From the IMG/VR virus record IMGVR_UViG_3300045988_099312, positions 1 to 55,517 of that record: a DNA stretch of 55,517 nt; one strand, written 5' to 3'. Both the position numbers and the translations under genes were made by a program. This stretch comes from a virus. Shown here piece after piece: positions 1 to 53,721 of this stretch; the stretch's first letter is position 1, and each line of letters starts with the position of its first letter. The notes beneath the pieces were generated by a model, which was not told where the DNA came from, searched no databases, and saw nothing but the letters and a program-made list of their open reading frames with translations.

Positions 1-283
1 AAGAACGTTTCTCATGGAAAATGTATACGTCTGCTCAATGCGTTAAAACGGCGATTCTAGCGATTTCTGAAAATCCACCATACTCCACCCCATCCGATTA
101 AATTTAGGCGTTTCCGAAATCGAGGAAAACGTATCATGCAAAACTAGCATAGCAAAAACGTTATTTAAGTAAAGAAAATACTTTACGCAAATGGGGAAAT
201 GTGGTATGATATATACATAAGAGAGATAGAGAAAAACAAAGAAATCTCTCGGAAATCAAAGAAAATCGGAGGAAACAAAAATG
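1..283 (+). repeat. Cassette copy A, 3' part (continues from 55306-55400 across the junction): conserved spacer, promoter, leader hairpin, RBS and ATG
   Basis: Near-identical to 36789-37177 and 50523-50911 when aligned by eye. Confidence 0.9.
182..210 (+). promoter_or_regulatory. SigmaA-type promoter of cassette A
   Basis: TTTACG (182-187), 17-nt spacer, extended -10 TGgTATGAT (202-210). Followed by leader hairpin GAGAGAT 221-227 / ATCTCTC 244-250 and RBS GGAGGAAAC. Confidence 0.7.
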
Positions 284-568
284 ACAAAAGCAGAAATGAA
301 AGAAATCGTGAGAAAAGGTATTGCAAAACTTAACGCATACTATGAAGCCGAAAACTATCTCGATAAGCACGAAGACGAAATGGACAAGGATAGTTACTAT
401 GCGGTAAAAATTAAATTTCAACGAGACGAAAGCCGTATCGATGGGATGATTCATGCGTTTGAGATGGTTGCCAATTATGACTTGATTTCGTATGATGATG
501 TACAAAACCTAATCGATGAGAGAAGACTTAAAGTTCTCAAGGCAATCGTAGATGATCGCATCAAATGA
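281..568 (+). CDS. Hypothetical protein (95 aa), first gene after cassette A
   Basis: ORF track entry. RBS GGAGGAAAC upstream of the ATG. The first 20 nt (MTKAEM) are shared with the gene at 37175. Confidence 0.8.
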   Translation: MTKAEMKEIVRKGIAKLNAYYEAENYLDKHEDEMDKDSYYAVKIKFQRDESRIDGMIHAFEMVANYDLISYDDVQNLIDERRLKVLKAIVDDRIK

Positions 569-650
569 TTGAATATGCAAGAAATTGGTTCTGTGGGGGC
601 GTAAGCCCCCAAGACCATTTATCATAATGATTGTTGTGGAGGAAATAAAA

Positions 651-791
651 ATGGCTAAAATCTATGCTCGAAAGAATGAATATGCTGAATGGGAATTGGT
701 TGGGACATTCTCTGCTTTCAATGGAGATGCAGTGCTTAGAAGATACCGTAAGCACTTTCCTTCATATAAGTTTAAAATGATTTATGGATAA
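651..791 (+). CDS. Hypothetical small protein (46 aa)
   Basis: Internal ATG of ORF 585-791, preceded by GTGGAGGAA with a 6-nt spacing. Confidence 0.6.
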   Translation: MAKIYARKNEYAEWELVGTFSAFNGDAVLRRYRKHFPSYKFKMIYG

Positions 792-936
792 TTCCATGAA
801 TGGTAGAAAAATAGTAGGTGTATTACGGGAAATTCCTGTGCTACAATTATAGTAGCCATTGAGCAAGAGGCGTTCGCTACTTGTTCATCTTCCCAAGGCT
901 ATGCCCACCATAAAACGGTGGGCATTCTCATAATAA

Positions 937-999
937 GCCCGAATAGCTTACGGAAAAGCGAGGCGAAAGTCTAAATGTGGTTCAACTCCACTCCGGGTA
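937..999 (+). ncRNA. tRNA-like element lacking an anticodon loop (GAAA-capped hairpin in its place)
   Basis: Acceptor-like pairing 937-943/992-998 with one mismatch. D-arm GCTT/AAGC. Hairpin AGGC-GAAA-GTCT at 961-972. T-arm GTGG-TTCAACT-CCAC at 977-991. Confidence 0.3.
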
Positions 1000-1056
1000 T
1001 AGTTCGGTGTCGGGTTATATTTTCTCCAATTTTTCTTTGACCTGATACTGAAATAT

Positions 1057-1145
1057 GGAAGCGTACCCAAGAGGTCAAAGGGAACTGTCTTGAAAACAGA
1101 GAGCTGGGGAACCGGGCGTAGGTTCGAATCCTACCGCTTCCGCCA
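1057..1145 (+). tRNA. tRNA-Ser (anticodon UGA), class II, CCA encoded
   Basis: Hand-folded cloverleaf. Acceptor GGAAGCG/CGCTTCC, anticodon loop CTTGAAA, long variable arm, T-loop GGTTCGAATCC. Confidence 0.85.
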
Positions 1146-1146
1146 T

Positions 1147-1238
1147 GGATACATGACCGAGTAGTCGAAGGTGCTTGCCTGCTAAGCAAGAAGCGGATTT
1201 TAAGCCGCTCGTAGGTGCAAATCCTACTGTATCCGCCA
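1147..1238 (+). tRNA. tRNA-Ser (anticodon GCU), class II, CCA encoded
   Basis: Acceptor GGATACA/TGTATCC, anticodon arm CTTGC-CTGCTAA-GCAAG, long variable arm, T-arm GTAGG-TGCAAAT-CCTAC. Confidence 0.85.
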
Positions 1239-1344
1239 ATAGCCTACCCAAGTGGCTTAAAATATAGGGGCGTATCCTAACCGCATGGGAGCGCGTAACA
1301 TCGTTGCGGTATCACTCCATGTAGCAATAACTACATGGAATTAT

Positions 1345-1418
1345 AGGGGGTTCGCCAAGAGGTAAGGCACAGGAATTTGACTCCTGCATCGATGGTTCGA
1401 TTCCATCACTCCCTGCCA
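1345..1418 (+). tRNA. tRNA-Gln (anticodon UUG), CCA encoded
   Basis: Acceptor AGGGGGT/ACTCCCT, anticodon arm CAGGA-ATTTGAC-TCCTG, T-arm GATGG-TTCGATT-CCATC. Confidence 0.85.
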
Positions 1419-2181
1419 ATGGCTGCCGAAAAGGCAACACTCTCCGGGGGCGAGTATAAATGACTCCCACCAGCTCCGCACAACATGCCATGGCAAAAAT
1501 GTAGCGTGCGGCTGACAACATGTCATCAGTATAAAGGACAGAGCGCAATCCACCGCGATAGAGTGGCGTGCTAAAGTTTCCTTACGAAAATGGAAGGATG
1601 GTTCGGAGCACCTTAAAAGTGTCCGGTGCGCGCTACACCTACGAAAAAGCGTGTCCCTGCATGCATGGGACGGTACTAGTGCTGTTTCTAAGGCTCTAAA
1701 CAGGGGGTTCCACTTACCGGAGTGGTGAGTTATCGTTAAGCTCATGCACAGAAAAACGGCGTTTCTTCCTTCGGGTCTAACATAAAAAGAAAAATACTCT
1801 GCTGCGGAGTGTTGGAGCAGTCGTGGATGCTAAAAGTTCCCAACGTTAGGGGAAGCAACAGTGTGAACACGCTCTCAACTAATTCTAAAGCGAACTTTTG
1901 CTGGGTTCACATGTGCCGGACGTACTATCGGGTTATCGTACTCATGAAGTGTAGCCGTCATTGGGAAAAACTAGGCTGCGCCGCTTAAATGTTTCTTGGC
2001 AAAGGAAAGTTAGCTCTGCGCTTGTGCAAGCGTGGAGCGCATATGTGGGTGAAATCGGCTAACTACCCGTTTCACCCTTTACATGAGCAAAAGAGGGGCG
2101 ACGACCTGTTTTGCTCGGCATGAAGATTCGGTTTCCTCCGAATGATAAGTGCAAGGTGAGCCACGAGCTTGCCTTGCATAT
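1419..2181 (+). ncRNA. Candidate large structured non-coding RNA (763 nt) between tRNA-Gln and tRNA-Lys; class unassigned, GOLLD/ROOL-like context
   Basis: No + strand ORF of 60 aa or more. The only tracked ORFs are antisense and cross tRNA genes. Many stable helices (coordinates in the findings). Flanked directly by tRNA genes. Confidence 0.5.
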
Positions 2182-2255
2182 GGGTTTGTAGCTCAGTTGG
2201 ATAGAGCGGCGGTTTCTTAAACCGTGCGTCGGGGGTTCAAGTCCTCCCAAACCCA
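2182..2255 (+). tRNA. tRNA-Lys (anticodon CUU)
   Basis: Acceptor GGGTTTG/CAAACCC, D-arm GCTC-AGTTGGATA-GAGC, anticodon loop TTCTTAA, T-loop TTCAAGT. CCA is not encoded. Confidence 0.85.
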
Positions 2256-2267
2256 CAATGCGTCTTT

Positions 2268-2343
2268 GGGGATATAGCTTAAATGGTAAAGCAAGTGGCT
2301 CATAACCGCTTCGATGTGGGTTCAAGTCCTGCTGTCCCCACCA
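2268..2343 (+). tRNA. tRNA-Met/Ile2 type (anticodon CAU), CCA encoded
   Basis: Acceptor GGGGATA/TGTCCCC, anticodon arm AGTGG-CTCATAA-CCGCT, T-loop TTCAAGT. Confidence 0.8.
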
Positions 2344-2378
2344 TTTTCGTAGTATCGCGAAAATGGTTTACAATCCAT

Positions 2379-2461
2379 GGGCGGCTATCCAAGCGGCTAA
2401 AGGACAGACCGTAAGTCTGAGTCAAAAGACTTCGCTAGTTCAAATCTAGCGCCGCCCACCA
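2379..2461 (+). tRNA. Class II tRNA, nominally Tyr (anticodon GUA), with a non-canonical anticodon loop CCGUAAG (C33)
   Basis: Acceptor GGGCGGC/GCCGCCC, 3-bp D-stem, anticodon stem ACAGA/TCTGA (4 bp plus an A-A mismatch), variable arm GTC-AAAA-GAC, T-arm GCTAG-TTCAAAT-CTAGC, CCA encoded. Confidence 0.6.
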
Positions 2462-2546
2462 TGTATGCGACTAGGGAGTATAGAGTAGCCAACCGCAAAT
2501 TTGCGGTCAAAAGACTTCGCTAGTTCAAATCTAGTGCTGCCCACCA
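2462..2546 (+). pseudogene. tRNA remnant: duplicated 3' half of the preceding tRNA joined to a non-matching 5' part
   Basis: 2506-2546 repeats 2421-2461 with 2 mismatches (variable arm, T-arm, acceptor 3' strand, CCA). The upstream sequence cannot pair with the acceptor 3' strand. It contains the palindrome CCGCAAATTTGCGG. Confidence 0.5.
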
Positions 2547-2659
2547 ATGTAAATGAGTGTAAGGTTTCTCCACTGGAGAGGGACTGATCCACCGTTTACA
2601 ACTCCCTTAATGTTTGCCTCTTATGTATTCATGATGAGTGTACATTAGAGGCACTGCAT

Positions 2660-2730
2660 GGTTAGGTAGTTTAATGGTAAAACTGGCGACCTGAAATCGC
2701 CAAATGATGGTTCAAATCCACCCCTAACCC
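2660..2730 (+). tRNA. Class I tRNA with atypical anticodon loop CCUGAAA (C33; nominal anticodon UGA); identity uncertain
   Basis: Acceptor GGTTAGG/CCTAACC, D-arm GTTT-AATGGTA-AAAC, anticodon stem GGCGA/TCGCC, 4-nt variable loop, T-arm GATGG-TTCAAAT-CCACC with one mismatch. CCA is not encoded. Confidence 0.55.
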
Positions 2731-2889
2731 CAGCGGGATAGCATCCATGTGAAACCGCATTACAACTTAACACCTGCCTTGTAACAAAGCATAAGTCGAT
2801 ATGTTGTGCCTAATACTTTTATCTTATGTTTTTTGCTGCTAAACCAATGATTCTTGGATGTCGGAAAACAGGGCAGGTCAATAACAATC

Positions 2890-2919
2890 CCTACAGCTAA
2901 ACGCTGTAGGATTTTTTTT
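2890..2919 (+). terminator. Rho-independent terminator closing the RNA island
   Basis: 8-bp stem CCTACAGC / GCTGTAGG, loop TAAAC, then a run of 8 T. Confidence 0.75.
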
Positions 2920-2960
2920 ACTCTGACTTGGATCAGAGATGAACCTTGGGAGGGATGCTT

Positions 2961-3560
2961 ATGGCTGAAAAGAAAATTGAAGTGGTGCGAATGAGGGTTG
3001 GCGATATTCAAGTCGGTTTTGGGAACCCGAGAAGAATAAAAAAGAATAAACGGGACGATCTGCAAAAGTCACTTGATACGTTTGGAGACTTTGGACTCAT
3101 TCTTATTGATGAAGAAAATAACGTGATTGCCGGAAATCAAAGGGTTTCAATTCTTCGGGAAGAAAGCCCTGACACCGAGGTTCTTTGCAAGCGATTGATT
3201 GGGTATACAAAGTCTGAACTGAAAGCAATCAATATCAAAGCTAATACACATGCTGGCGAATGGGATTTGGATATGCTTGCTGACTGGACTGCTGACATCA
3301 ACATTGACCTTGGTTTCGAGAATGAGACTGCCGCCAAAGAGCTACAGGAAAGAAAAATCAAAGAAATGGAGCTGATCCATTACGAAAAGTACGATTATGT
3401 AATGATCGTATGCAAAAACACCTTCGATTATGAAGAACTCATTTCTCGACTTGGCATCGAAGGCGCAAGGGTAAGAACTACTAACAAGCGAACGATAAAA
3501 GCTAGAGCTGTATGGTTCGACAAGGTTCGAGACAAACTTTTTGGTAAAGAGAAAGCCTAG
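2961..3560 (+). CDS. ParB/sulfiredoxin-like N-terminal domain protein (199 aa)
   Basis: RBS GGGAGGGA. The pattern VGDIQVGFGNPRR...LQKSLDTFGDFGLILID...VIAGNQRV matches the ParB N-terminal (ParBc) signature. The C-terminal half is not recognised. Confidence 0.7.
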   Translation: MAEKKIEVVRMRVGDIQVGFGNPRRIKKNKRDDLQKSLDTFGDFGLILIDEENNVIAGNQRVSILREESPDTEVLCKRLIGYTKSELKAINIKANTHAGEWDLDMLADWTADINIDLGFENETAAKELQERKIKEMELIHYEKYDYVMIVCKNTFDYEELISRLGIEGARVRTTNKRTIKARAVWFDKVRDKLFGKEKA

Positions 3561-3570
3561 GAGGAAGAAA

Positions 3571-4638
3571 ATGGAGAAGTATAATGTGTTATTTACTGCT
3601 TGCTGTGGCTGGCCCACGTGTGGGACGATTGATGCGTTGAAAAAGAGTAAAGACTATGATTTTCACGTTATCGGTGTCGATTGCAATCCCTATACTGCTG
3701 CATTGAATTATGTTGATGAATTATATAAAGTTCCTCGCTATGACGATGAGGATTATATTTCCAAACTCATTCAGATTTGTGTTGAGAAGCATGTTGATGT
3801 TGTTGTTCCTTTGATTAGCGATGAAATCAATGTTTTGTGTGAACATGAGAAAATGTTTAGCGATGTTGGGGTGAAACTTGCATTGACGCATAATCATGAG
3901 AAACTTAAAATTGCCAATAATAAAATACGGCTTCAAAAATATCTTGAAAAGAACAAAATACATGTAATGCCTAAAACGATTGTTGTTGATCGAGAAAACA
4001 TTGAGTCTGCACTGAACGAACTTGGGTATCCTGAAAAACCTGTATGCTTGAAACGGACAGATGGATGCGGGGCATCAGGATTCAGAATTATTGATGATGA
4101 AATGGCTAGAAAGGCTGTGTTTGCGAAGTCCAGAAATTTGCGAGCAAATAAATACGTTTCCAAAGCACAAATGATGGATGCCATTGATATTCTCGATCAT
4201 GACTTCATGCTTCAAGAATTTCTGCCAGGGCAAGAATTTAGTGTTATTTGCCTTGCTGACAAGGGGCGTACATTATATTCAATTACGCACAGGAACTTAA
4301 GAATGGATTTTGCAACCACGACATACTGCGAGCTTACTGATTTTCCTGAAGCTAATGAAATTGTACGGAAAATCAATGCGCTGCTAGAACTTGATGGAAA
4401 TATCGGCTTTGATTTCATCCATGATGAAAAGGGCGGAATTAAGCTGTTAGAAATTAACCCTCGAATTTCTGCTACCGTGTCACTTGCTGCGAAAGCCGGA
4501 GTAAACCTTGTTGAACTTGGCGTTTTACATGCTCTTGGTAAAGAAATTCCTACAGACCTCAAACCTGAATATGGAATGAGATTGTTCCGAAACTATGGAA
4601 CGCTTTATGAGAAGGAAGGGATTCCTTGTGGTCGATAA
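3571..4638 (+). CDS. ATP-grasp family carboxylate-amine ligase-like enzyme (355 aa)
   Basis: RBS TAGGAGGAAG. N-terminal Rossmann-like pre-ATP-grasp region, central 'KPVCLKRTDGCGASGFRII' and 'LLEINPRISATV' motifs typical of the ATP-grasp fold. Confidence 0.75.
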   Translation: MEKYNVLFTACCGWPTCGTIDALKKSKDYDFHVIGVDCNPYTAALNYVDELYKVPRYDDEDYISKLIQICVEKHVDVVVPLISDEINVLCEHEKMFSDVGVKLALTHNHEKLKIANNKIRLQKYLEKNKIHVMPKTIVVDRENIESALNELGYPEKPVCLKRTDGCGASGFRIIDDEMARKAVFAKSRNLRANKYVSKAQMMDAIDILDHDFMLQEFLPGQEFSVICLADKGRTLYSITHRNLRMDFATTTYCELTDFPEANEIVRKINALLELDGNIGFDFIHDEKGGIKLLEINPRISATVSLAAKAGVNLVELGVLHALGKEIPTDLKPEYGMRLFRNYGTLYEKEGIPCGR

Positions 4639-5350
4639 TGAAATCACTATTGGCGTTTATATACCGTCTGTTGGGAGAGCAGAACGAGGAATGATCACAG
4701 GGAAACTCTTTGAGTCTCCAAAACACATTGTTCGTAAGTCCCAAGAACAAGAGTATAAGAAGATGGGATTTATCAATGTCATTGGGGTCGAAGATAACGA
4801 AATTGATGGATATGGAGATGTTTTTAATTGGATTGTCGAGAATGCCAAAGAGGACATCATAGTCATTGCTGATGATGACATAAAGGCGTTCAGTTATCTA
4901 CTTGAAAGAGCTTATCGAATTGAAGATGTTGAGACTGTTCAGGCAGAATTTGAACGAATTGGTCAAATCCTATACGACCTTGACATTGGACTGGCATATG
5001 GGCCTGCTACTCCTGCATGGTACAACTATACGTGCGAGTTCGCTTTCTTCGGCATCCCCGGAGCTTTCAAGGTTATCAATAGGAAGGCACTCAAGGCAAA
5101 GATGGATAGTGAGCTTCCTAGGTGTACTGATATTGATTTTGTGTTGCAGGAGCTTTTGTTGAACCGTATTACGCTTAGTGTAAAATGGTTGGTTGATTCG
5201 CCATATGAAGATTCGACTACAAGCACATCTGGATCAACTTATAACGCCAAAGGAATACAGCAAGCCGTTGAAATCATGAAAGCAAGATGGGGAAAATACT
5301 TCTCGTACAACATGAAGAAAAACATTCCGCGCATTCGAGTTCAACGATAA
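4595..5350 (+). CDS. Hypothetical protein, possibly a GT-A-like glycosyltransferase (about 240-251 aa)
   Basis: ORF track entry. The start is uncertain: ATG 4595 or 4607, or GTG 4628 preceded by GGAAGGGA. An N-terminal 'IGVYIPSVGR' strand and a 'VIADDD' acidic motif about 90 aa in are reminiscent of GT-A nucleotide-sugar transferases. Confidence 0.4.
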   Translation: MERFMRRKGFLVVDNEITIGVYIPSVGRAERGMITGKLFESPKHIVRKSQEQEYKKMGFINVIGVEDNEIDGYGDVFNWIVENAKEDIIVIADDDIKAFSYLLERAYRIEDVETVQAEFERIGQILYDLDIGLAYGPATPAWYNYTCEFAFFGIPGAFKVINRKALKAKMDSELPRCTDIDFVLQELLLNRITLSVKWLVDSPYEDSTTSTSGSTYNAKGIQQAVEIMKARWGKYFSYNMKKNIPRIRVQR

Positions 5351-5379
5351 ATAGCATATGCAGTATTGCAAATATCCGT

Positions 5380-5408
5380 TTGCACAATATGTCATACTAT
5401 TGTATAAT
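5380..5408 (+). promoter_or_regulatory. Internal sigmaA-type promoter
   Basis: TTGCAC (5380-5385), 17-nt spacer, TATAAT (5403-5408), in the 116-bp AT-rich gap before the 5467 gene. Confidence 0.65.
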
Positions 5409-5466
5409 ATAAGTATACAAATTAAGCATAAAATGTATGCTTGTTATTTACAGTGGGAGGACTAAA

Positions 5467-6165
5467 ATGGCTTACAAAATTACAACACCCGGTGGATATG
5501 ATTTATTCGTCATGTCAAGTATGCTTCAGAAAGCGATTCGTAGAGCGGACATTGATCACGCTGCGTTCGCTGCAAAAGAACTTAGGGGAAGGCATTCCAC
5601 ATACTTATGGAAGAGGCTTCTCGTTATTTCAGCTGAAGATTGCTTCGGGATTATGACGAAAGAGATAATCGCGCTAAAACAGGCAGAGGATTTAGTAAAA
5701 GGGAATAATAAAGGATACGATGTTGACTCTATTTTCCTTGGTAAAGCCATCCTACTTTTGTGTATGGCTAGAAAGAATCGCGATGCTTGTTATATTTGCT
5801 GCAACTTTATGAATTACGACCGAACATTAAATCCTGATGAAATTCCCGGAGAAATTGATGTTGATGAATCGACCCTTGGTGTTGATGGTATTCCCGATTG
5901 GGTATTTGACATTCATACTCGAGAAGGATGGAAAAGAGGGAAGACTGACATTGATATGATTATCGACGAGCAGAAAGCACTTAAACCACAACAACCATCT
6001 TTGTTCGACGAAGCTAGTTGGGGAAATTATGAAGAGAAATATCTTTCTAAGCGCAGACCTTATAATGAGGTGCGAAAAATAAGAAAGTTTATGGAAGGCA
6101 AGGAAAACGATCCAACTCATAACGGTAAGGATTTAGTTGTTCCGAAACCGATTTGGGAAAAATGA
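5467..6165 (+). CDS. Standalone RarA/MgsA C-terminal-domain-like protein (232 aa), no AAA+ module
   Basis: RBS GGGAGGA. 'YDLFVMSSMLQKAIRRADIDHAAF...YLWKRLLVISAEDCFG...ILLLCMARKNRDA' follows the MgsA_C helical-domain pattern. No Walker A motif is present. Confidence 0.55.
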   Translation: MAYKITTPGGYDLFVMSSMLQKAIRRADIDHAAFAAKELRGRHSTYLWKRLLVISAEDCFGIMTKEIIALKQAEDLVKGNNKGYDVDSIFLGKAILLLCMARKNRDACYICCNFMNYDRTLNPDEIPGEIDVDESTLGVDGIPDWVFDIHTREGWKRGKTDIDMIIDEQKALKPQQPSLFDEASWGNYEEKYLSKRRPYNEVRKIRKFMEGKENDPTHNGKDLVVPKPIWEK

Positions 6166-6168
6166 TTG

Positions 6169-6199
6169 CAGGGAGGGCTAAATGCTCTCCCTGTTTTTA
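6169..6199 (+). terminator. Rho-independent terminator or attenuator
   Basis: Stem CAGGGAG (6169-6175) / CTCCCTG (6187-6193), followed by TTTTTAT. Confidence 0.6.
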
Positions 6200-6219
6200 T
6201 ACCATGTGAGGGAAGAAAA

Positions 6220-7401
6220 ATGAATTGTTGCGAAGATAGGTATGCACACTATGTGCTCTATGAGTCCATCGTTAGGCAAAATGTAATAGACATCATTGAT
6301 GCATTCAAAAGAAGATATTCCAATTTTGCATTGTCCTATAGCGTAAAGACGAACTACGTAAAAAGGGTTCAAGAAATCGTAAAAGAAGAAGGCGGATTAG
6401 CCGAGGTTGTTTCTCCGTTTGAATACGATTATGCGAGACTTACATTTGAAAGTAACCAAATCATTTACAATGGTCCAATTCCATCGAAAAAAAAATACTT
6501 CGCAGCTCGAAATGGAAGCATCGTGAATGTTGACAACATTGATGAGTTAAAGGCAATTATTCAGGAAGCTAAAAATGATAGATTGACTGAGCCCATCGGG
6601 ATTGGACTTCGCGTCACGTTTAATGTTGGGAACAAGATAGTGTCCCGATTTGGATTCTCTGTGGATGATGGAGATACTCGTGATTTTGATAGAGCAATAA
6701 ATATCATTAGGGAAAGCAAAGTATGCTATCTTGCTGGATTTCATTGCCATATTGGGGCTGGCAGACCTGTAAAATATTGGACTACGAAAGCCAGGAAAAT
6801 GTCTGAACTTGCTCACAAATATTACGATGATGGCGTTCGTTATATTGATTTAGGTGGAGGCATGTTTGGGCATATGATTGAACCTCTTCGGAATCAGTTT
6901 GATGACTATGAAGGTGACTTCGATGAATACGCAAAAACTGTTTCCGAAGAAATAAAGAAGTATTTTCCTCAAGAGCAAGTGAAACTCATTATTGAACCTG
7001 GAACTGCCATCGTTGGGGATGCTATGGAACTCGAAGCACACGTAACGTCCATCAAGAAACATAATGAGCAATGGTATATTACGCTTGACTGTGCAGGAAC
7101 TGATTTAGGGTTTGTTTGTGAGGTCAAGGATTTGCCTATTTCTATTTTAAGAACTGGGGCAGAGGAAAGTGTTTCTGTTGAGCATGGGATAATGGTCGGG
7201 AACACATGCCTTGAATTTGATCGCATCAAAAAAAACTATTGTGGTGAAATTGGAGTTGGAGATACTGTTATTTTCCCTAATGTTGGAGCGTACTCTATTA
7301 ACAATGCAAGACAATTTATCACACCACGATTAGGCGTATATGATGTCAGAGGGAATGAGATACAAAGATCAGAGACGCCAAGAGACATGTTTATTTTCTG
7401 A
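6220..7401 (+). CDS. PLP-dependent group IV (Orn/DAP/Arg-type) decarboxylase (393 aa)
   Basis: RBS GAGGGAAG. 'YSVKTNY' (PLP-lysine motif), 'YIDLGGGMFG' (glycine loop), 'EPGTAIVGD' and 'GNTCLEFD' match the alanine-racemase-fold decarboxylase signatures. Confidence 0.8.
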   Translation: MNCCEDRYAHYVLYESIVRQNVIDIIDAFKRRYSNFALSYSVKTNYVKRVQEIVKEEGGLAEVVSPFEYDYARLTFESNQIIYNGPIPSKKKYFAARNGSIVNVDNIDELKAIIQEAKNDRLTEPIGIGLRVTFNVGNKIVSRFGFSVDDGDTRDFDRAINIIRESKVCYLAGFHCHIGAGRPVKYWTTKARKMSELAHKYYDDGVRYIDLGGGMFGHMIEPLRNQFDDYEGDFDEYAKTVSEEIKKYFPQEQVKLIIEPGTAIVGDAMELEAHVTSIKKHNEQWYITLDCAGTDLGFVCEVKDLPISILRTGAEESVSVEHGIMVGNTCLEFDRIKKNYCGEIGVGDTVIFPNVGAYSINNARQFITPRLGVYDVRGNEIQRSETPRDMFIF

Positions 7402-7420
7402 TTGATTTGGAGAAAAGAAA

Positions 7421-8545
7421 ATGGAAAAGAAATATGATTACCTCGTCGTCGGCGCTGGATTGTTTGGATCAGTCTTTGCAAGACAGGCAACCAATTCCGG
7501 GAAAAGGGTTCTTGTTATCGAGAGAGAAAAAAATGCTGGTGGTGCATTGAGATGTAGTCAGAAGGAGGGCATCACAGTTCATGCACATGGCGCTCACATT
7601 TTCCACACTGACAGTGAAACGGTATGGAACTATGTAAACCGATATACCTCGTTCATACCTTACAGACATATCGTCGTTGCCCGATGTGGAGATTTCCTGT
7701 ATGAGCTTCCGTTTAACATCAATACCTTTTATCAAGTGTATGGTGTAATCAATCCCAAAGAAGTCAGAGAAATGATTGACACGTTTGGTGCTGAAAATGT
7801 AGATGATTCGACGGTAGAGGGATTCTCCATCAGAAGGCTCGGAACGAAAATGTACGAGACTTTGATTAAAGGTTACACGGAAAAGCAATGGGGGCGTTCA
7901 TGCAAAGAGCTTCCTGCATCGTTGATTGGGAGATTGCCTATTCGCATGTCTTTTGATAACGGATATTTCGCTGACAAGTATCAAGGCATCCCAAAGTCAA
8001 AGGATGGGTATAATGAATTGATCCATAACCTCTTGAACGGGATTGAGGTTAAATATGGGTATGATTGTTTCCACGGGTATAGTGACCCTCTTATAAAGAA
8101 AGCAAAGAAGGTTATTTGTACTGGATCGATTGATGAGTATTTTAATTACTGCTTTGGGGCAATGGCTTACAGAAGCCTATGCCACAGTCACCATATTTAT
8201 GATATTGGGGATTATCAGGGGACTGCTGTAGTGAATTACACATCAAAGGGAATAGCACATACGCGAGTTATCGAGCATAAGCACTTCCGCCCCGATATAA
8301 ATGTTTCAGGAACGATTGTAACATTCGAGTATCCTCTTGAATGGGAGCCTGGCTTACCCCGGTATTATCCAATCAACAATCATGGAAACATGAAGCTATA
8401 TTCGCTGTATGAAGCCCTTGCCAAGAAGGAAGCACCAAATACGATATTCGGAGGGAGGCTCGGGACGTATCGGTATCTCGATATGGATGATACGGTAGCC
8501 GCAGCACTCCAGTTAGCAGATAGAGAACTGAAAGGTGGTGATTAA
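7421..8545 (+). CDS. glf: UDP-galactopyranose mutase (374 aa)
   Basis: N-terminal FAD fold 'YDYLVVGAGLFGSVFA'. 'GGALR...HAHGAHIFHT', 'YTEKQWG' and 'GRLGTYRYLDMD' are characteristic Glf motifs. Confidence 0.85.
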   Translation: MEKKYDYLVVGAGLFGSVFARQATNSGKRVLVIEREKNAGGALRCSQKEGITVHAHGAHIFHTDSETVWNYVNRYTSFIPYRHIVVARCGDFLYELPFNINTFYQVYGVINPKEVREMIDTFGAENVDDSTVEGFSIRRLGTKMYETLIKGYTEKQWGRSCKELPASLIGRLPIRMSFDNGYFADKYQGIPKSKDGYNELIHNLLNGIEVKYGYDCFHGYSDPLIKKAKKVICTGSIDEYFNYCFGAMAYRSLCHSHHIYDIGDYQGTAVVNYTSKGIAHTRVIEHKHFRPDINVSGTIVTFEYPLEWEPGLPRYYPINNHGNMKLYSLYEALAKKEAPNTIFGGRLGTYRYLDMDDTVAAALQLADRELKGGD

Positions 8546-8548
8546 AGA

Positions 8549-9268
8549 ATGAGTGAGTCTGATGATAACGTTGAGAAAGAGAATGAGCGAGAAAAGTCGT
8601 TCAACATTATAGCCAAAGAGCTTTTATCAAAAAAGGTATTCGGTGATAATAACCAAAAAAACCTCGAACGATTCGGTATCGCAAAGGAAGAGCAGAACTA
8701 CAGAACTGCCATTATTGTTCGTCTGCTAGAGAAAGCAGTAACCCAAATAGACATACAGTCTATCAAAGCCTTAAGAGAGCTTGTCGATGGGGAAAAAACG
8801 TTCGATGAGGTTATAGCATCTACGAGTGCTAGAAAGGGTAAAGTAGTAAGACCTATCAAAAAAACACCGACCGACGAGGAATTGGCTGAAGCCCTTGAAA
8901 ACAGCGGCGGTGTTCAAATGAATGCAGTGAAGTACCTACGAGACAACTTTGGCTATATATATTCGCAGCAAGCCATCTCAAAGAGAATGCAGAAGAACCC
9001 CAAGCTAAGGGAATCTGCTGGGATTGGCGTAGAGAAGATGACCGACTTCGTTGAAACAAAATTATTTGAAGCCATCGAAGAAGGGAAACTTCCGGCTATA
9101 TTCTTTTATCTCAAATGTAAGGGAAAGAAACGAGGGTATGTAGAAAAGGTCATTGTCAATGGTGATATGAATCTGAATGTTAAAGAAAATTCAGCAATCC
9201 ACCTATCAGACGAAGATCTGCAGAAGGCAGTGGATGCATTGCTCGAAAAGGATGGTATGAATGAATGA
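8549..9268 (+). CDS. terS: Terminase small subunit (239 aa), putative
   Basis: Lies immediately upstream of the large terminase and overlaps it. HTH-like segment 'NAVKYLRDNFGYIYSQQAISKRM'. Confidence 0.6.
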   Translation: MSESDDNVEKENEREKSFNIIAKELLSKKVFGDNNQKNLERFGIAKEEQNYRTAIIVRLLEKAVTQIDIQSIKALRELVDGEKTFDEVIASTSARKGKVVRPIKKTPTDEELAEALENSGGVQMNAVKYLRDNFGYIYSQQAISKRMQKNPKLRESAGIGVEKMTDFVETKLFEAIEEGKLPAIFFYLKCKGKKRGYVEKVIVNGDMNLNVKENSAIHLSDEDLQKAVDALLEKDGMNE

Positions 9269-10673
9269 GCTTGAGCAAGCGCGATTCGATCTGTATACCG
9301 AAGCTGCTAGAAGATCATTATGGTATTATTGCAGGATAAAAAATCCAAAGTTTTACAGAAGTGATAGAGTCTTTCTGAAAGCTATGTGTGACACCATGCA
9401 GGACTTCCTTACATCGACTAAAAAGGTGCTTGTTATCAACATGCCACCCAGACATGGGAAGAGCTTTACTGCTTCCCATTTTGTCGAATGGATGCTCGGG
9501 AAAGACAGAACCAAAAAGATAATGCTTGGTTCGTACAATGAATCTTTGTCTATGCGTTTTTCGAAACTCGTTAGAAACGATATTAGCGAAATTAAGGGTG
9601 ATCAAAGCAAGATTGTATATAGTGACATATTCCCCGACACTAGAATCAGTAGGGGCGATGGTGCGATGAACCTTTGGAGCCTTGAGGGTTCGTATAACAA
9701 TTACCTTGCCACATCTCCGGGAGGCACAGCCACTGGGTTTGGTGCAGACCTTCTTTGTATCGATGATTTAATCAAGTCATCATCAGAAGCCTATAGCGAA
9801 ACTGCCAAAGATAGTCAATGGGATTGGTTTACGAATACCATGCTGTCACGACTAGAAGAAGGTGGAAAGATTATCGTTATTATGACACGGTGGGCAAGCG
9901 ATGACCTTGCAGGAAGGGTACTTGATTATTTCAAGCCTGAACAGATTGAACATATCAATTACACCGCTGTTCAAAAAGACGGATCGATGCTATGTGAGTC
10001 CATCCTATCGAAAGAAAGTTGTGACCAAAAGAAGCGACTCATGGGACTGGACATTTGGTCAGCTAACTATCAGCAAGAACCTATCGACATCAAAGGGCGT
10101 TTATATACATCGTTTAAAACCTATACGGATGTACCTAGAGACATGGCTGGCTATCCGTTGTTTACCTCAATCAAATCCTACTGCGATACTGCCGACGAAG
10201 GCAGCGACTACCTTTGTAATATCATCTATGGCGTTTACGAAAACGATGCTTATGTTTTAGATGTTTTATACACGCAGAAGCCCATGGAATACACAGAGAG
10301 CGAGACGGCAAAACGCCTCGCTTCTTTTAATGTCCGAATAGCCGACATTGAATCAAACAACGGTGGACGAGGTTTTGCGAGGGCTGTAGAGAAGCAACTC
10401 AAACAGTCTTATCACTACCATCGGTGTAAGATTTGTTGGTTTCATCAAGGTGAAAACAAAAGGGCAAGGATACTGTCTAATAGTACGGCTGTTATGGATC
10501 ATATTTTCTTTCCTGCCAACTGGCAAGACAAGTGGACGGAGTTCTACGACCACCTCCACAAGTTCCAACGGGAAGGGAAAAACGCCCACGATGACGCAGA
10601 GGATGCACTGACTGGTGTTATTGAAAAAATGAACCGGACAGGCATAAAAATCAACCCAATTATTTTGAGATAG
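9261..10673 (+). CDS. terL: Terminase large subunit (470 aa)
   Basis: Walker A-like 'PPRHGKSF', Walker B-like 'LLCIDDL', the 'VIMTRWASDDL' motif and a C-terminal nuclease half with acidic residues. Confidence 0.85.
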   Translation: MNELEQARFDLYTEAARRSLWYYCRIKNPKFYRSDRVFLKAMCDTMQDFLTSTKKVLVINMPPRHGKSFTASHFVEWMLGKDRTKKIMLGSYNESLSMRFSKLVRNDISEIKGDQSKIVYSDIFPDTRISRGDGAMNLWSLEGSYNNYLATSPGGTATGFGADLLCIDDLIKSSSEAYSETAKDSQWDWFTNTMLSRLEEGGKIIVIMTRWASDDLAGRVLDYFKPEQIEHINYTAVQKDGSMLCESILSKESCDQKKRLMGLDIWSANYQQEPIDIKGRLYTSFKTYTDVPRDMAGYPLFTSIKSYCDTADEGSDYLCNIIYGVYENDAYVLDVLYTQKPMEYTESETAKRLASFNVRIADIESNNGGRGFARAVEKQLKQSYHYHRCKICWFHQGENKRARILSNSTAVMDHIFFPANWQDKWTEFYDHLHKFQREGKNAHDDAEDALTGVIEKMNRTGIKINPIILR

Positions 10674-37515: not shown

Positions 37516-37548
37516 TGAAAAAGAGGGGGCTACGCCCCTTCTTTTTTT
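37516..37548. terminator. Bidirectional rho-independent terminator between convergent genes
   Basis: A-run, stem GAGGGGGC / GCCCCTTC, T-run. Confidence 0.75.
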
Positions 37549-49933: not shown

Positions 49934-50503
49934 ATGGAGAAAGAAGTACGAACGCTGGGCGATGTAGAACTCACAATCACGGTGGAAAAAATACTGGAAC
50001 TTGCAAAAGAAGTTGCTAAAACTACCGTTGATGAGATAAACGAACTGGAAGAGAAAAAAAGAGAGCTTTACAGTCCGCAAAAAGCAGCAAAGAAAATGCT
50101 TTCAGATTATCGTAGGTTAAAACGAGTGGCAACACATGAAATTCAACCGACAAAAGAGGAAGCTATTAGTTTGCAATGGGAATACTTACGTGAACTGATG
50201 GGAAATCCCGATGAAAAAATGTATGCCGAAAATATTGCTTATATCACTGAACGGAAATTGCAATATAACAGGTACAAAGTCCAAAAGATTGAAAAGGCGT
50301 TTCGTTTGTATAAACAGGAATGTAATGAAAATGGGAGTGATGAAGCATTGCGTAGATGTCGGATTATTCAGCAGATGTATTTTGACAATGGACACCCGTC
50401 TGTTGCAGAGATAGCAAAAGCCGAACATGTAACCGATAAGGCGATTTACAAAGACATGGGGAATGCTTACAAAGTCATTGCCGCCTATTTGTCCGCATTG
50501 TGA
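49934..50503 (+). CDS. ArpU/RinA-like sigma region-4-type transcriptional activator (189 aa), putative
   Basis: RBS GGAGGAAAC. C-terminal HTH 'PSVAEIAKAEHVTDKAIYKDMGNAYKVIA'. It is the last gene of the early module, just before cassette C. Confidence 0.5.
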   Translation: MEKEVRTLGDVELTITVEKILELAKEVAKTTVDEINELEEKKRELYSPQKAAKKMLSDYRRLKRVATHEIQPTKEEAISLQWEYLRELMGNPDEKMYAENIAYITERKLQYNRYKVQKIEKAFRLYKQECNENGSDEALRRCRIIQQMYFDNGHPSVAEIAKAEHVTDKAIYKDMGNAYKVIAAYLSAL

Positions 50504-53438: not shown

Positions 53439-53721
53439 AAAGTTTATGAATCCACCTGATTCTCCGTACACTAGGTATCGAGGTATTGGATTCACGCCGG
53501 ATCAGTTTATTAAAATGACGAATGAATACAAAAAGTGTTTCACGTACTATTGCGAGTGCTTGATAACACAGAACGGACTTGTGTTTCTAGCTTCTCCGTC
53601 ACATAGCATTGAAGCAGAACGCTTAAAAAAACATGGGTATCATGGGTTAGTCCTGGTTTGGTATGATGGCATCTGCCATGACCCTGACGATACGTCAAAA
53701 AATGACGAAGGCGCAGGTTGA
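53425..53721 (+). CDS. Hypothetical protein (98 aa)
   Basis: TTG start after AAGGAGGGA. Confidence 0.65.
   Translation: MDVFEKFMNPPDSPYTRYRGIGFTPDQFIKMTNEYKKCFTYYCECLITQNGLVFLASPSHSIEAERLKKHGYHGLVLVWYDGICHDPDDTSKNDEGAG

What the first reader, a model, noticed from the sequence alone, without database searches (positions are those of the whole stretch)
2961..8545. Six-gene enzyme island next to the packaging genes: candidate novel DNA or virion hypermodification pathway
Seen in sequence, six co-oriented genes lie between the RNA island and terS:
- a ParB/Srx-like N-terminal-domain protein
- an ATP-grasp ligase
- a protein with GT-A-like 'IPSVGR' and 'ADDD' motifs
- a RarA/MgsA C-terminal-domain-only protein
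- a group IV PLP decarboxylase (KTNY, GGGMFG, EPGT and CLEFD motifs)
- a clear UDP-galactopyranose mutase

The island has its own internal promoter (5380-5408) and a terminator or attenuator (6169-6199).

Established knowledge: phage DNA hypermodification pathways combine glycosyltransferases, amino-acid-adding enzymes and PLP-dependent steps. Separately, some phages glycosylate their capsid and tail proteins. Glf makes UDP-galactofuranose.

Inference: the set is equipped to attach a galactofuranose and/or a ligated, then decarboxylated, amino-acid moiety to a macromolecule. Possible targets are genomic DNA (anti-restriction), virion proteins, or the host envelope (lysogenic conversion). I do not recognise this combination as a described system. 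No pyrimidine hydroxymethylase, TET/JBP or DNA kinase is evident, which weakens the DNA hypothesis. Membership of the ParB-like gene is uncertain, because ParB-like genes are common next to terminases.
Basis: partly seen in the sequence, partly recalled or inferred. Interest (0 to 1): 0.8.

Follow-up and report, generated by a model that had tools for sequence, protein, structure and literature searches.

The report
Phage ParB-linked glycosylation gene module
The six genes are real and belong to a widespread, apparently undescribed phage gene module: a ParB-like protein, a DNA-type glycosyltransferase and a RarA-tail-like protein are always together, next to swappable sugar-tailoring enzymes, just before the DNA-packaging genes, and they most likely decorate phage DNA with unusual sugars.

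Summary
Corrected coordinates:
- ParB-like: 2961-3560
- ATP-grasp: 3571-4638
- GT-A glycosyltransferase of the TAGT family: 4595-5350
- RarA/MgsA C-terminal-only protein "P4": 5467-6165
- FslC-like PLP decarboxylase: 6220-7401
- UDP-galactopyranose mutase (Glf): 7421-8545

The promoter-like site (5379-5408) and the terminator-like hairpin (6168-6194) are also there.

Comparative analysis changes the picture. The invariant core is ParB + GT + P4: 57/58 dereplicated modules carry each partner. It always lies upstream of terminase, in phages and prophages of Bacillota, Bacteroidota, Spirochaetota and Actinomycetota. ATP-grasp, decarboxylase and Glf form one of several interchangeable tailoring cassettes. 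Others are PIG-L + WbqC, DegT + 4,6-dehydratase, UDP-glucose dehydrogenase, GNAT and Mur ligase.

A sigma-70-type promoter before P4 is conserved across loci.

No TET/JBP or thymidylate-synthase homologue is present in the window or linked to the core.

Best reading (about 0.5): ParB-assisted, post-replicative glycosylation of phage DNA with an amine-decorated sugar. The acceptor is unknown. Virion glycosylation is the main rival. I found no description of this module in the literature I could search.

The parts
2890..2911 (.). Bidirectional terminator-like hairpin separating the tRNA island from the module
   Evidence: stem of 8-9 pairs followed by a T-run, on both strands
2961..3560 (+). P1: short ParB/Srx-like protein of 199 aa. 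It has an N-terminal ParB domain with GFGNPR and AGNQR motifs and a conserved C-terminal domain. No HTH was detected. Core member.
   Evidence: Co-occurs with the GT in 66/66 loci and 57/58 dereplicated modules.
3571..4638 (+). P2: ATP-grasp ligase (PylC-like N domain, ATPgrasp_Ter type). Member of an optional tailoring cassette.
   Evidence: Present in 23/58 modules and never together with WbqC.
4595..5350 (+). P3: GT-A glycosyltransferase, a divergent branch of the TAGT (TET-associated glycosyltransferase) family, with an invariant DDD motif. Catalytic core member.
5379..5408 (+). Sigma-70-type promoter-like site in the 116-bp gap between GT and P4. The equivalent gap in homologous loci carries TTGACN, 16-18 nt, TGnTACGAT/TAAGAT/TATAAT.
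   Evidence: Strict motif in 86/169 unique upstream regions against 0.9% of random windows.
5467..6165 (+). P4: protein homologous to the C-terminal half of RarA/MgsA, with no AAA+ domain, 232 aa, mostly helical. Core member.
   Evidence: Found with the GT in 71/72 loci and 57/58 modules.
6168..6199 (+). Intrinsic-terminator-like hairpin (11 pairs, 7 G-C) plus a T-run, directly after the P4 stop codon
   Evidence: A comparable hairpin follows P4 in 27/120 unique loci.
6220..7401 (+). P5: fold-type III PLP decarboxylase, closest to N-citrylornithine decarboxylase FslC. Optional cassette; present in 21 of the 23 modules that carry the ATP-grasp.
7421..8545 (+). P6: UDP-galactopyranose mutase (Glf). 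Optional; found only in modules that also have the ATP-grasp and the decarboxylase (12/58).
8549..10673 (+). Packaging genes that always follow the module. The 239-aa product of 8549-9268 resembles the N-terminal extension of long TerLs. TerL itself is 9261-10673.

Best explanation
The locus is one variant of a conserved phage module. Its fixed core has three parts:
- a short ParB-like protein;
- a TAGT-family GT-A glycosyltransferase;
- a protein made of the C-terminal half of RarA/MgsA.

The core sits immediately upstream of the terminase genes.

Proposed mechanism (inferred):
1. Late in infection the glycosyltransferase transfers a nucleotide-activated sugar onto replicated phage dsDNA.
2. 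The ParB-like protein acts as the DNA-loading or activating partner, as shown for ParB-dependent phage thymine dioxygenases.
3. The RarA-C-like protein acts as a second DNA- or partner-binding accessory. It is transcribed from its own host-type promoter.

The remaining genes are one of several interchangeable tailoring cassettes that set the chemistry of the adduct. In this window:
- Glf supplies UDP-galactofuranose.
- The ATP-grasp ligase joins a diamino or acidic amino acid to the sugar or adduct through an amide (or ester) bond.
- The FslC-like PLP decarboxylase then removes the free alpha-carboxylate and leaves an aminoalkyl (cationic) side chain.

Shown: gene identities, the fold of the GT, strict co-occurrence and synteny, phage-only context, and the conserved promoter.

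Inferred: DNA as the acceptor, the roles of ParB and P4, the order of the steps, and the substrates.
For: (1) The GT belongs with DNA glycosyltransferases.
- Pfam TAGT is the only GT family hit (21/27 members).
- Its model matches predicted phage TAGT-domain proteins and the T-even beta-glucosyl-HMC-alpha-glucosyltransferase at TMq 0.7-0.8. Generic GT-A structures in PDB reach about 0.5.

(2) Linkage is strict.
- Starting from the GT, ParB is present in 66/66 loci and P4 in 71/72.
- Each is present in 57/58 after dereplication at 90% identity.
- All 31 bacterial-genome loci carry the core.
- The trio persists in very divergent clades and in 68%-GC lytic Microbacterium phages.
- Minimal ParB-GT-P4 trios exist without any tailoring gene.

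(3) ParB-like proteins have been shown experimentally to activate a DNA-modifying enzyme on dsDNA in phages, and they co-occur with GTs and terminases (PMC13229309). The ParB domain of P1 is as close to the ParB domains of phage ParB-methyltransferase fusions (phrog_498, 1.3e-19) as to stand-alone ParBs.

(4) The hosts span four phyla with unrelated envelopes. The packaging and capsid modules differ between loci: at least three TerL families and two portal families, plus loci that match none. DNA is the one macromolecule common to all these phages.

(5) All six proteins lack hydrophobic segments.

(6) The tailoring logic has precedents.
- The decarboxylase is closest to FslC.
- A phage Glf in a DNA-glycosylation cluster has been proposed for Rhizobium phage RL38J1 (PMC13326640).
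- Diverse sugar-tailoring genes accompany phage DNA GTs (bioRxiv 2023.12.21.572611).
Against: - No enzyme that makes a hydroxylated pyrimidine acceptor was found. There is no TET/JBP and no thymidylate-synthase homologue among the window ORFs scanned: + strand ORFs of at least 90 aa outside the structural block (about 12.1-31.2 kb), plus some shorter and - strand ones. None appears in the precomputed Pfam annotation of neighbourhoods.
- No additional conserved gene lies within 7 kb upstream. A ThyA homologue occurs only in L010 and L011.
- The authors of the GT survey consider GT contigs without such a partner less likely to act on DNA.
- No ParB-GT or GT-P4 fusion was found among 743 representatives.
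- One clade of duplicated P4 sits next to a terminase without ParB or GT.
- One module variant lacks P4.
- No virion DNA chemistry is available.
Confidence: 0.5

Rival explanations
1. Virion protein glycosylation. The GT, fed by the tailoring cassette, decorates capsid or tail proteins late in infection, as in some mycobacteriophages. ParB and P4 would have packaging-related roles of their own.
For: - The module sits at the head of the packaging and structural gene block in every locus.
- No base-activating enzyme was found.
- The cassettes resemble protein and cell-surface glycan pathways such as PseB/PseC and PglF/PglE: DegT plus Polysacc_synt_2 dehydratase.
Against: - The capsid, portal and terminase families differ widely among module-bearing phages, so no common protein acceptor is evident.
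- The GT is structurally nearer to DNA GTs than to other phage GTs. A Gordonia phage GT reaches only TMq 0.55.
- This reading does not explain the near-100% linkage to a ParB-like and a RarA-C-like protein.
Confidence: 0.2
2. Synteny without joint function. ParB and P4 are packaging or late-gene accessory proteins that flank a hot spot, and unrelated glycan-metabolism 'cargo' genes are inserted there.
For: - ParB-like genes are common next to terminases.
- P4 has its own promoter.
- P4 can occur next to a terminase without ParB or GT.
- One variant lacks P4.
- The P1 family (at least 1732 clusters) looks larger than the set of P3 relatives found (27), although the searches differ in sensitivity.
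Against: - The GT of this family was never seen without ParB when flank was available (66/66, with one exception in 58 dereplicated modules).
- The trio is kept through gene-order changes such as P4-ParB-GT in L159, GT-WbqC-P4 and GT-DC-P4.
- It is kept across four phyla and across unrelated structural modules.
- Both P1 homologues sampled at random carried the GT.
Confidence: 0.12
3. Synthesis of a soluble glyco-conjugate, such as a nucleotide- or nucleoside-linked or thiol-like metabolite, rather than modification of a polymer. GT + PIG-L deacetylase + ligase follows the bacillithiol and mycothiol logic. The ParB/Srx fold would bind the nucleotide substrate.
For: - The PIG-L protein is closest to BshB1.
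- Most modules (53/58) carry either an ATP-grasp or a WbqC, never both, consistent with a ligase step. PIG-L is present in 37/58.
- The best solved structural neighbour of the GT is a nucleoside-binding GT, AvpGT with Ara-A, TM 0.55.
Against: - TAGT relatives are much closer than AvpGT.
- The minimal trios have no ligase or deacetylase.
- Nothing explains the fixed position before the terminase or the RarA-C-like partner.
Confidence: 0.1
4. Modification of the host envelope (lysogenic conversion or superinfection exclusion) by altering teichoic acid, LPS or capsule sugars.
For: - The window is a temperate phage: serine recombinase at 37547-39235 (-) and a CI-like repressor.
- Glf and the amino-sugar enzymes are typical of cell-surface glycan loci.
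Against: - The module lies in the late and packaging region, not near the integrase.
- It also occurs in strictly lytic Microbacterium phages.
- All proteins are soluble, with no Gtr-like membrane partners.
- The same core occurs in hosts with Gram-positive, Gram-negative and spirochaete envelopes.
- No homologue was found in a cell-wall locus.
Confidence: 0.05

Closest known systems
Phage TET/5mYOX-associated DNA glycosylation clusters (TAGT-type GT-A enzymes; Burke et al. 2021, PMC8256090; bioRxiv 10.1101/2023.12.21.572611)
   Same: - GT-A glycosyltransferase of the TAGT family.
- Phage-encoded and often next to ParB and terminase genes.
- Accompanied by sugar-tailoring enzymes.
- Post-replicative logic that is compatible with temperate phages.
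   Different: - There is no C5-methyltransferase, 5mYOX/TET or thymidylate-synthase homologue to create the hydroxyl acceptor.
- A RarA-C-like protein is an obligatory third partner.
- The tailoring cassettes (ATP-grasp + FslC-like decarboxylase, PIG-L + WbqC) are not mentioned in the main text of the GT preprint and did not turn up in any paper search.
ParB-dependent phage thymine dioxygenases (O'Toole et al. 2026, PMC13229309)
   Same: A short ParB-like protein without a recognisable DNA-binding HTH is encoded next to a DNA-modifying enzyme and near a terminase. There, ParB is required for activity on dsDNA.
   Different: The partner enzyme here is a glycosyltransferase, not an Fe/2OG dioxygenase. 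None of the kinase, AADT or GATase thymidine-hypermodification genes is present. Sequence relatedness of P1 to the ParB176 class could not be tested because no sequences were available.
Glycosylated 5-hydroxycytosine pathways (RB69, DLP3, Rhizobium phage RL38J1; PMC13326640)
   Same: Phage-encoded nucleotide-sugar enzymes feed DNA glycosyltransferases. They include a UDP-galactopyranose mutase proposed to supply UDP-galactofuranose.
   Different: Those pathways start from 5-hydroxy-dCMP made by a ThyA homologue before replication. Here such a gene is absent (a ThyA homologue occurs only in L010 and L011).
Ligase and PLP-decarboxylase pairs in small-molecule biosynthesis: FslA/FslC (rhizoferrin), SbnE/SbnH, BtrJ/BtrK (butirosin). 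FslC from tool hits; the rest from my own knowledge.
   Same: An amino acid is first ligated through a side-chain group. A fold-type III decarboxylase then removes the alpha-carboxylate and leaves an amine. P5 is closest to FslC, and BtrJ is an ATP-grasp.
   Different: P5 is far below the FslC family cut-off (145 against 500 bits). The ligase is a PylC-like ATP-grasp, not an NIS synthetase. The context is a phage glycosylation module.
Bacillithiol and mycothiol pathways (GT, then PIG-L deacetylase, then ligase, then GNAT)
   Same: The commonest variants of the module carry GT + PIG-L (BshB1-like) + a putative ligase (WbqC or ATP-grasp), with or without GNAT. This suggests GlcNAc transfer, de-N-acetylation and re-acylation.
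   Different: The window's own variant lacks PIG-L. The GT family differs (TAGT GT-A against GT-B BshA/MshA). Nothing indicates a thiol product.
RarA/MgsA (replication-associated AAA+ protein)
   Same: P4 keeps the conserved motifs of the RarA C-terminal half: QKAIRR..D, SAED, ARKNRD and the later P..D.HT..G..GKT stretch.
   Different: It has no AAA+ ATPase module, is phage-encoded, and occurs as a single or tandem-duplicated domain. Its function is unknown.

Membership tests
TAGT (TET-associated glycosyltransferase, PF20691) | Sequence match to the family model at or above the gathering score | tested here: met
   27.8 bits against a cut-off of 27.5, E 2.9e-6, covering only the N-terminal half. 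21/27 family members match at E<=0.01 and no other GT family matches. This is a marginal, divergent branch.
TAGT (TET-associated glycosyltransferase, PF20691) | GT-A fold with a DxD motif, structurally close to known phage DNA GTs | tested here: met
   AF2 pLDDT 89. DDD 93-95 is invariant. TMq 0.67-0.81 to TAGT-domain phage proteins and 0.73 to beta-glucosyl-HMC-alpha-glucosyltransferase.
TAGT (TET-associated glycosyltransferase, PF20691) | Genomic association with a TET/JBP dioxygenase or a pyrimidine hydroxy(methyl)ase that makes the acceptor | tested here: not met
   None among the window ORFs scanned. None in the precomputed Pfam of neighbourhoods. No conserved extra family upstream.
TAGT (TET-associated glycosyltransferase, PF20691) | Glycosyl transfer to 5hmC or 5hmU in DNA | not testable with these tools
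   Needs biochemistry.
ParB/Srx superfamily (ParB_N, PF02195) | Match to the ParB N-terminal domain, including the GxxR box | tested here: met
   phrog_620 E 1.4e-20 and phrog_498 E 1.3e-19. The window protein has no Pfam hit at E<0.01, but its orthologue Gina gp88 (29% identity, E 3e-17) hits ParB_N at 3.3e-8. G59 and R62 of the AGNQR box are invariant and N60 nearly so; N23-P24-R25 are invariant and G22 nearly so.
Chromosome-segregation ParB | Central HTH DNA-binding domain, parS site and ParA partner | tested here: not met
   P1 has 199 aa and no HTH family hit. No ParA-like gene is in the window. parS was not searched.
ParB-dependent 5mYOX system (PMC13229309) | Adjacent Fe/2OG 5-methylpyrimidine dioxygenase | tested here: not met
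   No TET_JBP hit anywhere. The gene in the equivalent position (P4) is helical, not a jelly-roll.
RarA/MgsA | MgsA_C-type C-terminal region | tested here: met
   Family profile against the PDB C-terminal fragments 2r9g (E 0.002), 2qw6, 8g28, 3bge and 3ctd. Foldseek probability 0.99, but E about 0.5 and TMq about 0.33. No Pfam MgsA_C hit at E<0.01. The homology is real but distant.
RarA/MgsA | AAA+ ATPase domain with Walker motifs | tested here: not met
   The 232-aa protein starts at the C-terminal region and has no AAA hit. It is not a RarA.
ATP-grasp ligases | ATP-grasp domain models above cut-off | tested here: met
   PylC-like_N 77.9 against 27, ATPgrasp_Ter 76.7 against 29.1, ATP-grasp_3 51.8 against 23.2. 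The substrate is not assignable: every NCBIfam equivalog is far below its cut-off.
Fold-type III PLP decarboxylases (Orn/DAP/Arg); FslC subfamily | Family model, the PLP-lysine motif and the other signature motifs; FslC equivalog score | tested here: inconclusive
   Superfamily membership is met: Orn_Arg_deC_N 80.2 against 23.4, with the KTNY, GGGMFG, EPGT and CLEFD motifs in the sequence. FslC is the best hit, but at 145 bits against a cut-off of 500. 7kh2 has E 6.6e-33 against 6.3e-17 for DAP decarboxylase.
UDP-galactopyranose mutase (Glf) | Equivalog model score; FAD-binding N-terminus plus GLF domain | tested here: met
   TIGR00031 327.8 against 303.75. GLF 9.5e-66 plus NAD_binding_8. 4mo2 and 1i8t at E about 1e-105.
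Thymidine hypermodification clusters (5-HMUDK kinase + AADT/aGPT-Pplase) | P-loop DNA kinase and amino-acid:DNA transferase genes | tested here: not met
   No such Pfam hits in the window or in neighbourhoods.

The most novel reading that the evidence does not exclude
The ParB-like and RarA-C-like proteins load a TAGT-type glycosyltransferase onto ordinary dsDNA. The enzyme glycosylates a canonical base directly, with no hydroxymethyl or hydroxyl 'handle'. An example would be N-glycosylation of an exocyclic amine. The sugar is then aminoacylated and decarboxylated, or deacetylated and re-acylated. The result would be a family of cationic glyco-DNA modifications, diversified by cassette swapping, in gut and soil phages of at least four bacterial phyla.
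Probability: 0.18. Interest if true: 0.92.

Novelty: new variant of a known kind. Interest (0 to 1): 0.74.

Why it matters
If the module modifies DNA, it would be a handle-independent, or at least TET- and ThyA-independent, route to glycosylated phage DNA. ParB would be extended from a dioxygenase activator to a general loader of DNA-modifying enzymes. The orphan RarA C-terminal domain would gain a first functional context.

The module is common in human and animal gut prophages: 743 GT representatives at 50% identity, found in Oscillospiraceae, Lachnospiraceae, Faecalibacterium, Bacteroidales, Treponema and, in a more divergent form, Microbacterium phages. It could therefore affect restriction and CRISPR evasion, the sequencing and assembly of gut viromes, and phage-host range prediction.

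The interchangeable cassettes are a natural library of sugar- and amine-tailoring enzymes. Cultivable Microbacterium cluster EC phages make the question directly testable.

If the target turns out to be the virion, the module would be a widespread virion-glycosylation system with an unexplained dependence on ParB. That would also be new.

Tried and rejected
- No near-identical annotated phage exists (megablast). tblastn of the GT against GenBank phages found nothing.
- I looked for a hidden hydroxylase or hydroxymethylase by Pfam or PHROG scans of the window ORFs outside the virion structural block and by clustering all ORFs within 7 kb upstream of ParB in 99 unique loci. Only late regulators, RusA and replication genes recur. 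The weak ThyX-like hit at 53718-54266 is below cut-off and not conserved with the module.
- I looked for Rosetta-stone fusions of the GT with ParB or P4 among 743 representatives. The few long proteins are chimeras with unrelated sequence.
- P4 as a disguised dioxygenase or as an enzyme with a known fold: the AF2 model is helical, with no significant fold match beyond RarA C-terminal fragments.
- P4-only loci in a distant clade turned out to be false negatives of my HMM threshold, because the trio is present. Only the tandem-duplicated P0029 clade truly lacks ParB and GT.
- An exact-peptide scan with P0029 alone found nothing.
- In one search my 'Gina' queries were taken from the wrong record, so those G_* hits are disregarded.
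- The Iyer et al. 2013 paper could not be read, and the PNAS 2026 paper has no held supplements. P1 could therefore not be compared with ParB176.
- The small 5'-UTR hairpin upstream of P4 is not significant on its own (z = -1.65).
- Rfam finds only the tRNAs in 1-9300.

Full report
**1. Observation**

The interval 2946-8545 holds six co-oriented + strand ORFs with no competing long ORFs. They lie between a tRNA island (six tRNAs, 1057-2731) and the packaging genes: TerL at 9261-10673 and the portal gene from 10692.

- P1 is ParB-like. It hits phrog_620 at 1.4e-20 and the ParB domain of ParB-methyltransferase fusions, phrog_498, at 1.3e-19.
- P2 is an ATP-grasp ligase with a PylC-like N domain and an ATPgrasp_Ter C-terminal part.
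- P3 hits only the TAGT family among glycosyltransferases, at 27.8 bits against a cut-off of 27.5.
- P4 has no Pfam hit. A profile of its family finds the crystallised C-terminal fragments of RarA/MgsA-type ATPases: 2r9g, 2qw6, 8g28, 3bge and 3ctd.
- P5 is a fold-type III PLP decarboxylase.
- P6 is a bona fide UDP-galactopyranose mutase. It passes the NCBIfam equivalog cut-off and matches 4mo2 at E 1.9e-106.

Gene calls on near-identical contigs and homologue lengths place the true starts at 2961, 3571, 4595, 5467, 6220 and 7421.

The promoter-like site at 5379-5408 and the hairpin plus T-run at 6168-6199 are present.

**2. Genome context**

The window is a temperate tailed phage. It encodes:
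- a serine recombinase at 37547-39235 (-), a CI-like repressor and an amidase endolysin;
- RecT, DUF3799, a DnaC-like loader, RusA, HNH, dUTPase and SSB;
- a replication initiator.

I scanned the + strand ORFs of at least 90 aa outside the virion structural block (about 12.1-31.2 kb), plus selected shorter and - strand ORFs. I found no TET/JBP dioxygenase, no thymidylate-synthase homologue, no DNA kinase and no amino-acid:DNA transferase. The only related signal is a sub-threshold ThyX-like match at 53718-54266.

**3. The unit is a three-gene core plus cassettes**

The first clue came from GenBank phages. P4 homologues (about 40% identity) occur in 62 records, mostly Microbacterium cluster EC phages. 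In phage Gina the order is sigma factor, ParB-like, glycosyltransferase, UDP-glucose dehydrogenase, P4 homologue, and then, across the circular junction, terminase. Gina's ParB is 29% identical to P1 over both domains (E 3e-17). Its GT aligns with P3 around the DDD motif (E 1e-4).

I then fetched the following sets of loci:
- 80 IMG/VR loci through P4;
- 80 through the GT;
- 80 through a divergent P4 clade;
- 31 bacterial-genome loci through the GT;
- several metagenome contigs.

I annotated them with my own family HMMs.

Starting from the GT:
- ParB is present in 66 of 66 loci with enough upstream flank.
- P4 is present in 71 of 72 loci with enough downstream flank.
- After dereplicating the GT at 90% identity (58 clusters), ParB and P4 are each present in 57.

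The trio survives changes of gene order (P4-ParB-GT, GT-WbqC-P4, GT-DC-P4). It survives extreme sequence divergence. It also occurs alone as a minimal ParB-GT-P4 set.

The other genes vary (counts of 58 modules):

| Gene | Modules |
|---|---|
| ATP-grasp | 23 |
| Decarboxylase | 21 |
| Glf | 12 (always with the two above) |
| PIG-L deacetylase (BshB1-like) | 37 |
| WbqC-like | 30 |
| DegT aminotransferase | 13 |
| Polysacc_synt_2 dehydratase | 12 |

A SAM methyltransferase, GNAT, Mur ligase or UDP-glucose dehydrogenase occurs occasionally. ATP-grasp and WbqC never co-occur. This suggests that they fill the same (ligase) step.

The six-gene set in the window is therefore one recurrent variant, not the unit itself.

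**4. Phage association and host range**

All 31 genome loci have ParB and the GT, and P4 wherever the contig extends past the GT. Terminase and/or portal genes follow in 24 of them; the rest are cut short by contig ends or carry packaging genes that my models do not cover. None lies in a cell-wall polysaccharide locus.

The hosts named by the records are Oscillospiraceae, Lachnospiraceae, Acutalibacteraceae, Faecalibacterium, Peptostreptococcaceae, other Clostridia, Muribaculaceae, Prevotella, other Bacteroidales and Treponema. A further homologue lies in Selenomonas ruminantium, and the actinobacterial phages add another phylum.

A profile of the GT family finds 743 representatives (clusters at 50% identity) at E<=1e-3 and 231 at E<=1e-10.

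The packaging and capsid modules that follow the core differ. There are at least three TerL families and two portal families, and many loci match none. Capsid types also differ, for example PF09950 against SPP1-like.

**5. What the proteins say**

*The GT.* The model is confident (pLDDT 89). Against solved structures it gives only generic GT-A matches: AvpGT with Ara-A, WrtF, GpgS, TarP and SpsA, at TM about 0.5. Against predicted viral structures it matches TAGT-domain proteins and the T-even beta-glucosyl-HMC-alpha-glucosyltransferase at TMq 0.67-0.81. Within the GT-A fold it therefore belongs to the clade of phage DNA glycosyltransferases.

*P1.* It is a short ParB with conserved GFGNPR and AGNQR boxes and a conserved C-terminal domain (MELIHYEKYDYV..C...DY..L...LGI). 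No HTH was detected. This is the same overall layout reported for the ParB activators of phage thymine dioxygenases.

*P4.* The model has pLDDT 81 and is helical. It keeps the signature motifs of the RarA C-terminal half but has no ATPase. Some clades carry a tandem duplication of the domain.

*P5.* It is clearly closer to N-citrylornithine decarboxylase FslC than to DAP, ornithine or arginine decarboxylases: 7kh2 at E 6.6e-33 against 6.3e-17 for DAP decarboxylase, and NCBIfam FslC at 2e-42. Its relatives therefore decarboxylate an amino acid that has already been ligated through its side chain. This fits a ligase-then-decarboxylase sequence with the adjacent ATP-grasp.

None of the six proteins has a hydrophobic segment.

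**6. Regulation**

The gap of about 100 bp between the GT and P4 is conserved in length. It carries a near-consensus host-type promoter: TTGACA/T, 17 nt, often an extended -10 TGnTACGAT, TAAGAT or TATAAT.
- The strict pattern occurs in 86 of 169 unique upstream regions.
- It occurs in 0.9% of random windows of equal size from the same loci.

The window's TTTGCA-N18-TATAAT is a weaker member of this class. A terminator-like hairpin follows P4 in 27 of 120 unique loci, including this one.

ParB and the GT usually overlap and are probably translationally coupled. P4 heads a separate transcription unit. A sigma-like late regulator family often lies just upstream of ParB. Its homologue in the window is at 49934-50503.

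**7. Interpretation**

I rank DNA as the most likely acceptor (about 0.5), for four reasons:
- The GT clade points to DNA glycosyltransferases.
- The obligatory ParB-like partner has experimental precedent as an activator of a DNA-modifying enzyme on dsDNA, and is often fused to DNA methyltransferases in phages.
- The third partner derives from a replication-fork protein.
- The acceptor must be common to phages with unrelated capsids and hosts.

The main weakness is the lack of any enzyme that would make 5hmC, 5hmU or 5hoC. All characterised phage DNA GTs need one of these bases. Three possibilities follow:
- An unrecognised activity provides the acceptor.
- The GT acts directly on a canonical base. 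This is the most novel reading.
- The target is not DNA.

Virion glycosylation (about 0.2) explains the position and the glycan-type cassettes. It does not explain ParB, P4 or the lack of a shared protein acceptor. Pure synteny, a soluble glyco-conjugate and envelope modification are less likely, for the reasons given under the rival explanations.

**8. Literature**

Full-text searches found no description of a ParB-GT-RarA-C module, nor of ATP-grasp plus decarboxylase or PIG-L plus WbqC cassettes in phage DNA modification.

The closest work is:
- phage TET/GT clusters (PMC8256090);
- the survey showing that about 65% of phage GT contigs have no neighbouring base-modifying enzyme and remain unexplained (bioRxiv 2023.12.21.572611);
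- ParB-dependent T-dioxygenases (PMC13229309);
- glycosylated 5-hydroxycytosine, including a phage Glf (PMC13326640).

The Microbacterium paper only notes the glycosyltransferase and UDP-glucose dehydrogenase genes.

**9. Verdict**

The feature is a new variant of phage hypermodification and glycosylation systems. It has a well-defined, widely distributed three-gene core and an unresolved acceptor. It is directly testable in cultivable phages.

Noticed in passing
window 5350-5466, and the equivalent GT-P4 gaps in L003-L288: A near-consensus sigma-70 promoter, often with an extended -10 (TGnTACGAT), is conserved in front of the RarA-C-like gene in otherwise unrelated intergenic sequences: 51% of 169 unique regions against 0.9% background. 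P4 is therefore transcribed separately from ParB-GT, possibly on a different schedule.
   Followed up: partly
window 5409-5444, and the 5' UTRs of P4 in L012, L072, L073, L102, L106 and L124: A short hairpin lies between the -10 box and the ribosome-binding site of P4 in several sequence classes. In the window it is not significant on its own (z = -1.65).
   Followed up: partly
window 8549-9268: The gene called terS has no Pfam, PHROG or NCBIfam hit. It matches the N-terminal extension of the ~600-aa large terminases of related phages (local HMM, E 3.6e-14). It may be a split-off terminase N-domain rather than a classical small subunit.
   Followed up: partly
window 53718-54266: A 182-aa protein has a sub-threshold match to flavin-dependent thymidylate synthase ThyX (23.7 bits against a cut-off of 24.8; phrog_6721, unknown function). 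It lies a few kb upstream of the module if the genome is circularly permuted. It is not conserved with the module elsewhere.
   Followed up: partly
L009-L288 (58 dereplicated modules): ATP-grasp (23) and WbqC-like (30) genes are mutually exclusive and usually sit just upstream of the GT. This suggests that the uncharacterised WbqC family performs an analogous ligation step. Glf occurs only together with ATP-grasp + decarboxylase.
   Followed up: partly
P0012-P0033; L079-L088; L093 10001-11113: Some P4 homologues are tandem duplications of the RarA-C-like domain (370-407 aa). One such clade (L093, L094) sits next to a split terminase without ParB or GT, in a phage rich in Lar-like restriction-alleviation genes.
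   Followed up: partly
L010 2716-3621 and 5055-6371 (also L011): One module variant has a thymidylate-synthase homologue 3.4 kb upstream and a MurF-like Mur ligase directly upstream of ParB. It is the only locus seen with a candidate pyrimidine-modifying enzyme.
   Followed up: no
L173-L175 4190-5971: The P4-less module variant (Glf-PIG-L-ParB-DC-ATP-grasp-GT) lies about 3 kb downstream of a large C5 DNA methyltransferase and a PemK-like toxin gene. Related contigs carry a PAPS-reductase-like gene.
   Followed up: no
window 1419-2181: A 760-bp stretch inside the tRNA island is GC-richer than the rest of the phage, has no convincing ORF and has no Rfam match at gathering threshold.
   Followed up: no
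window 2890-2911: A bidirectional terminator-like hairpin sits between the last tRNA and the ParB gene.
   Followed up: no
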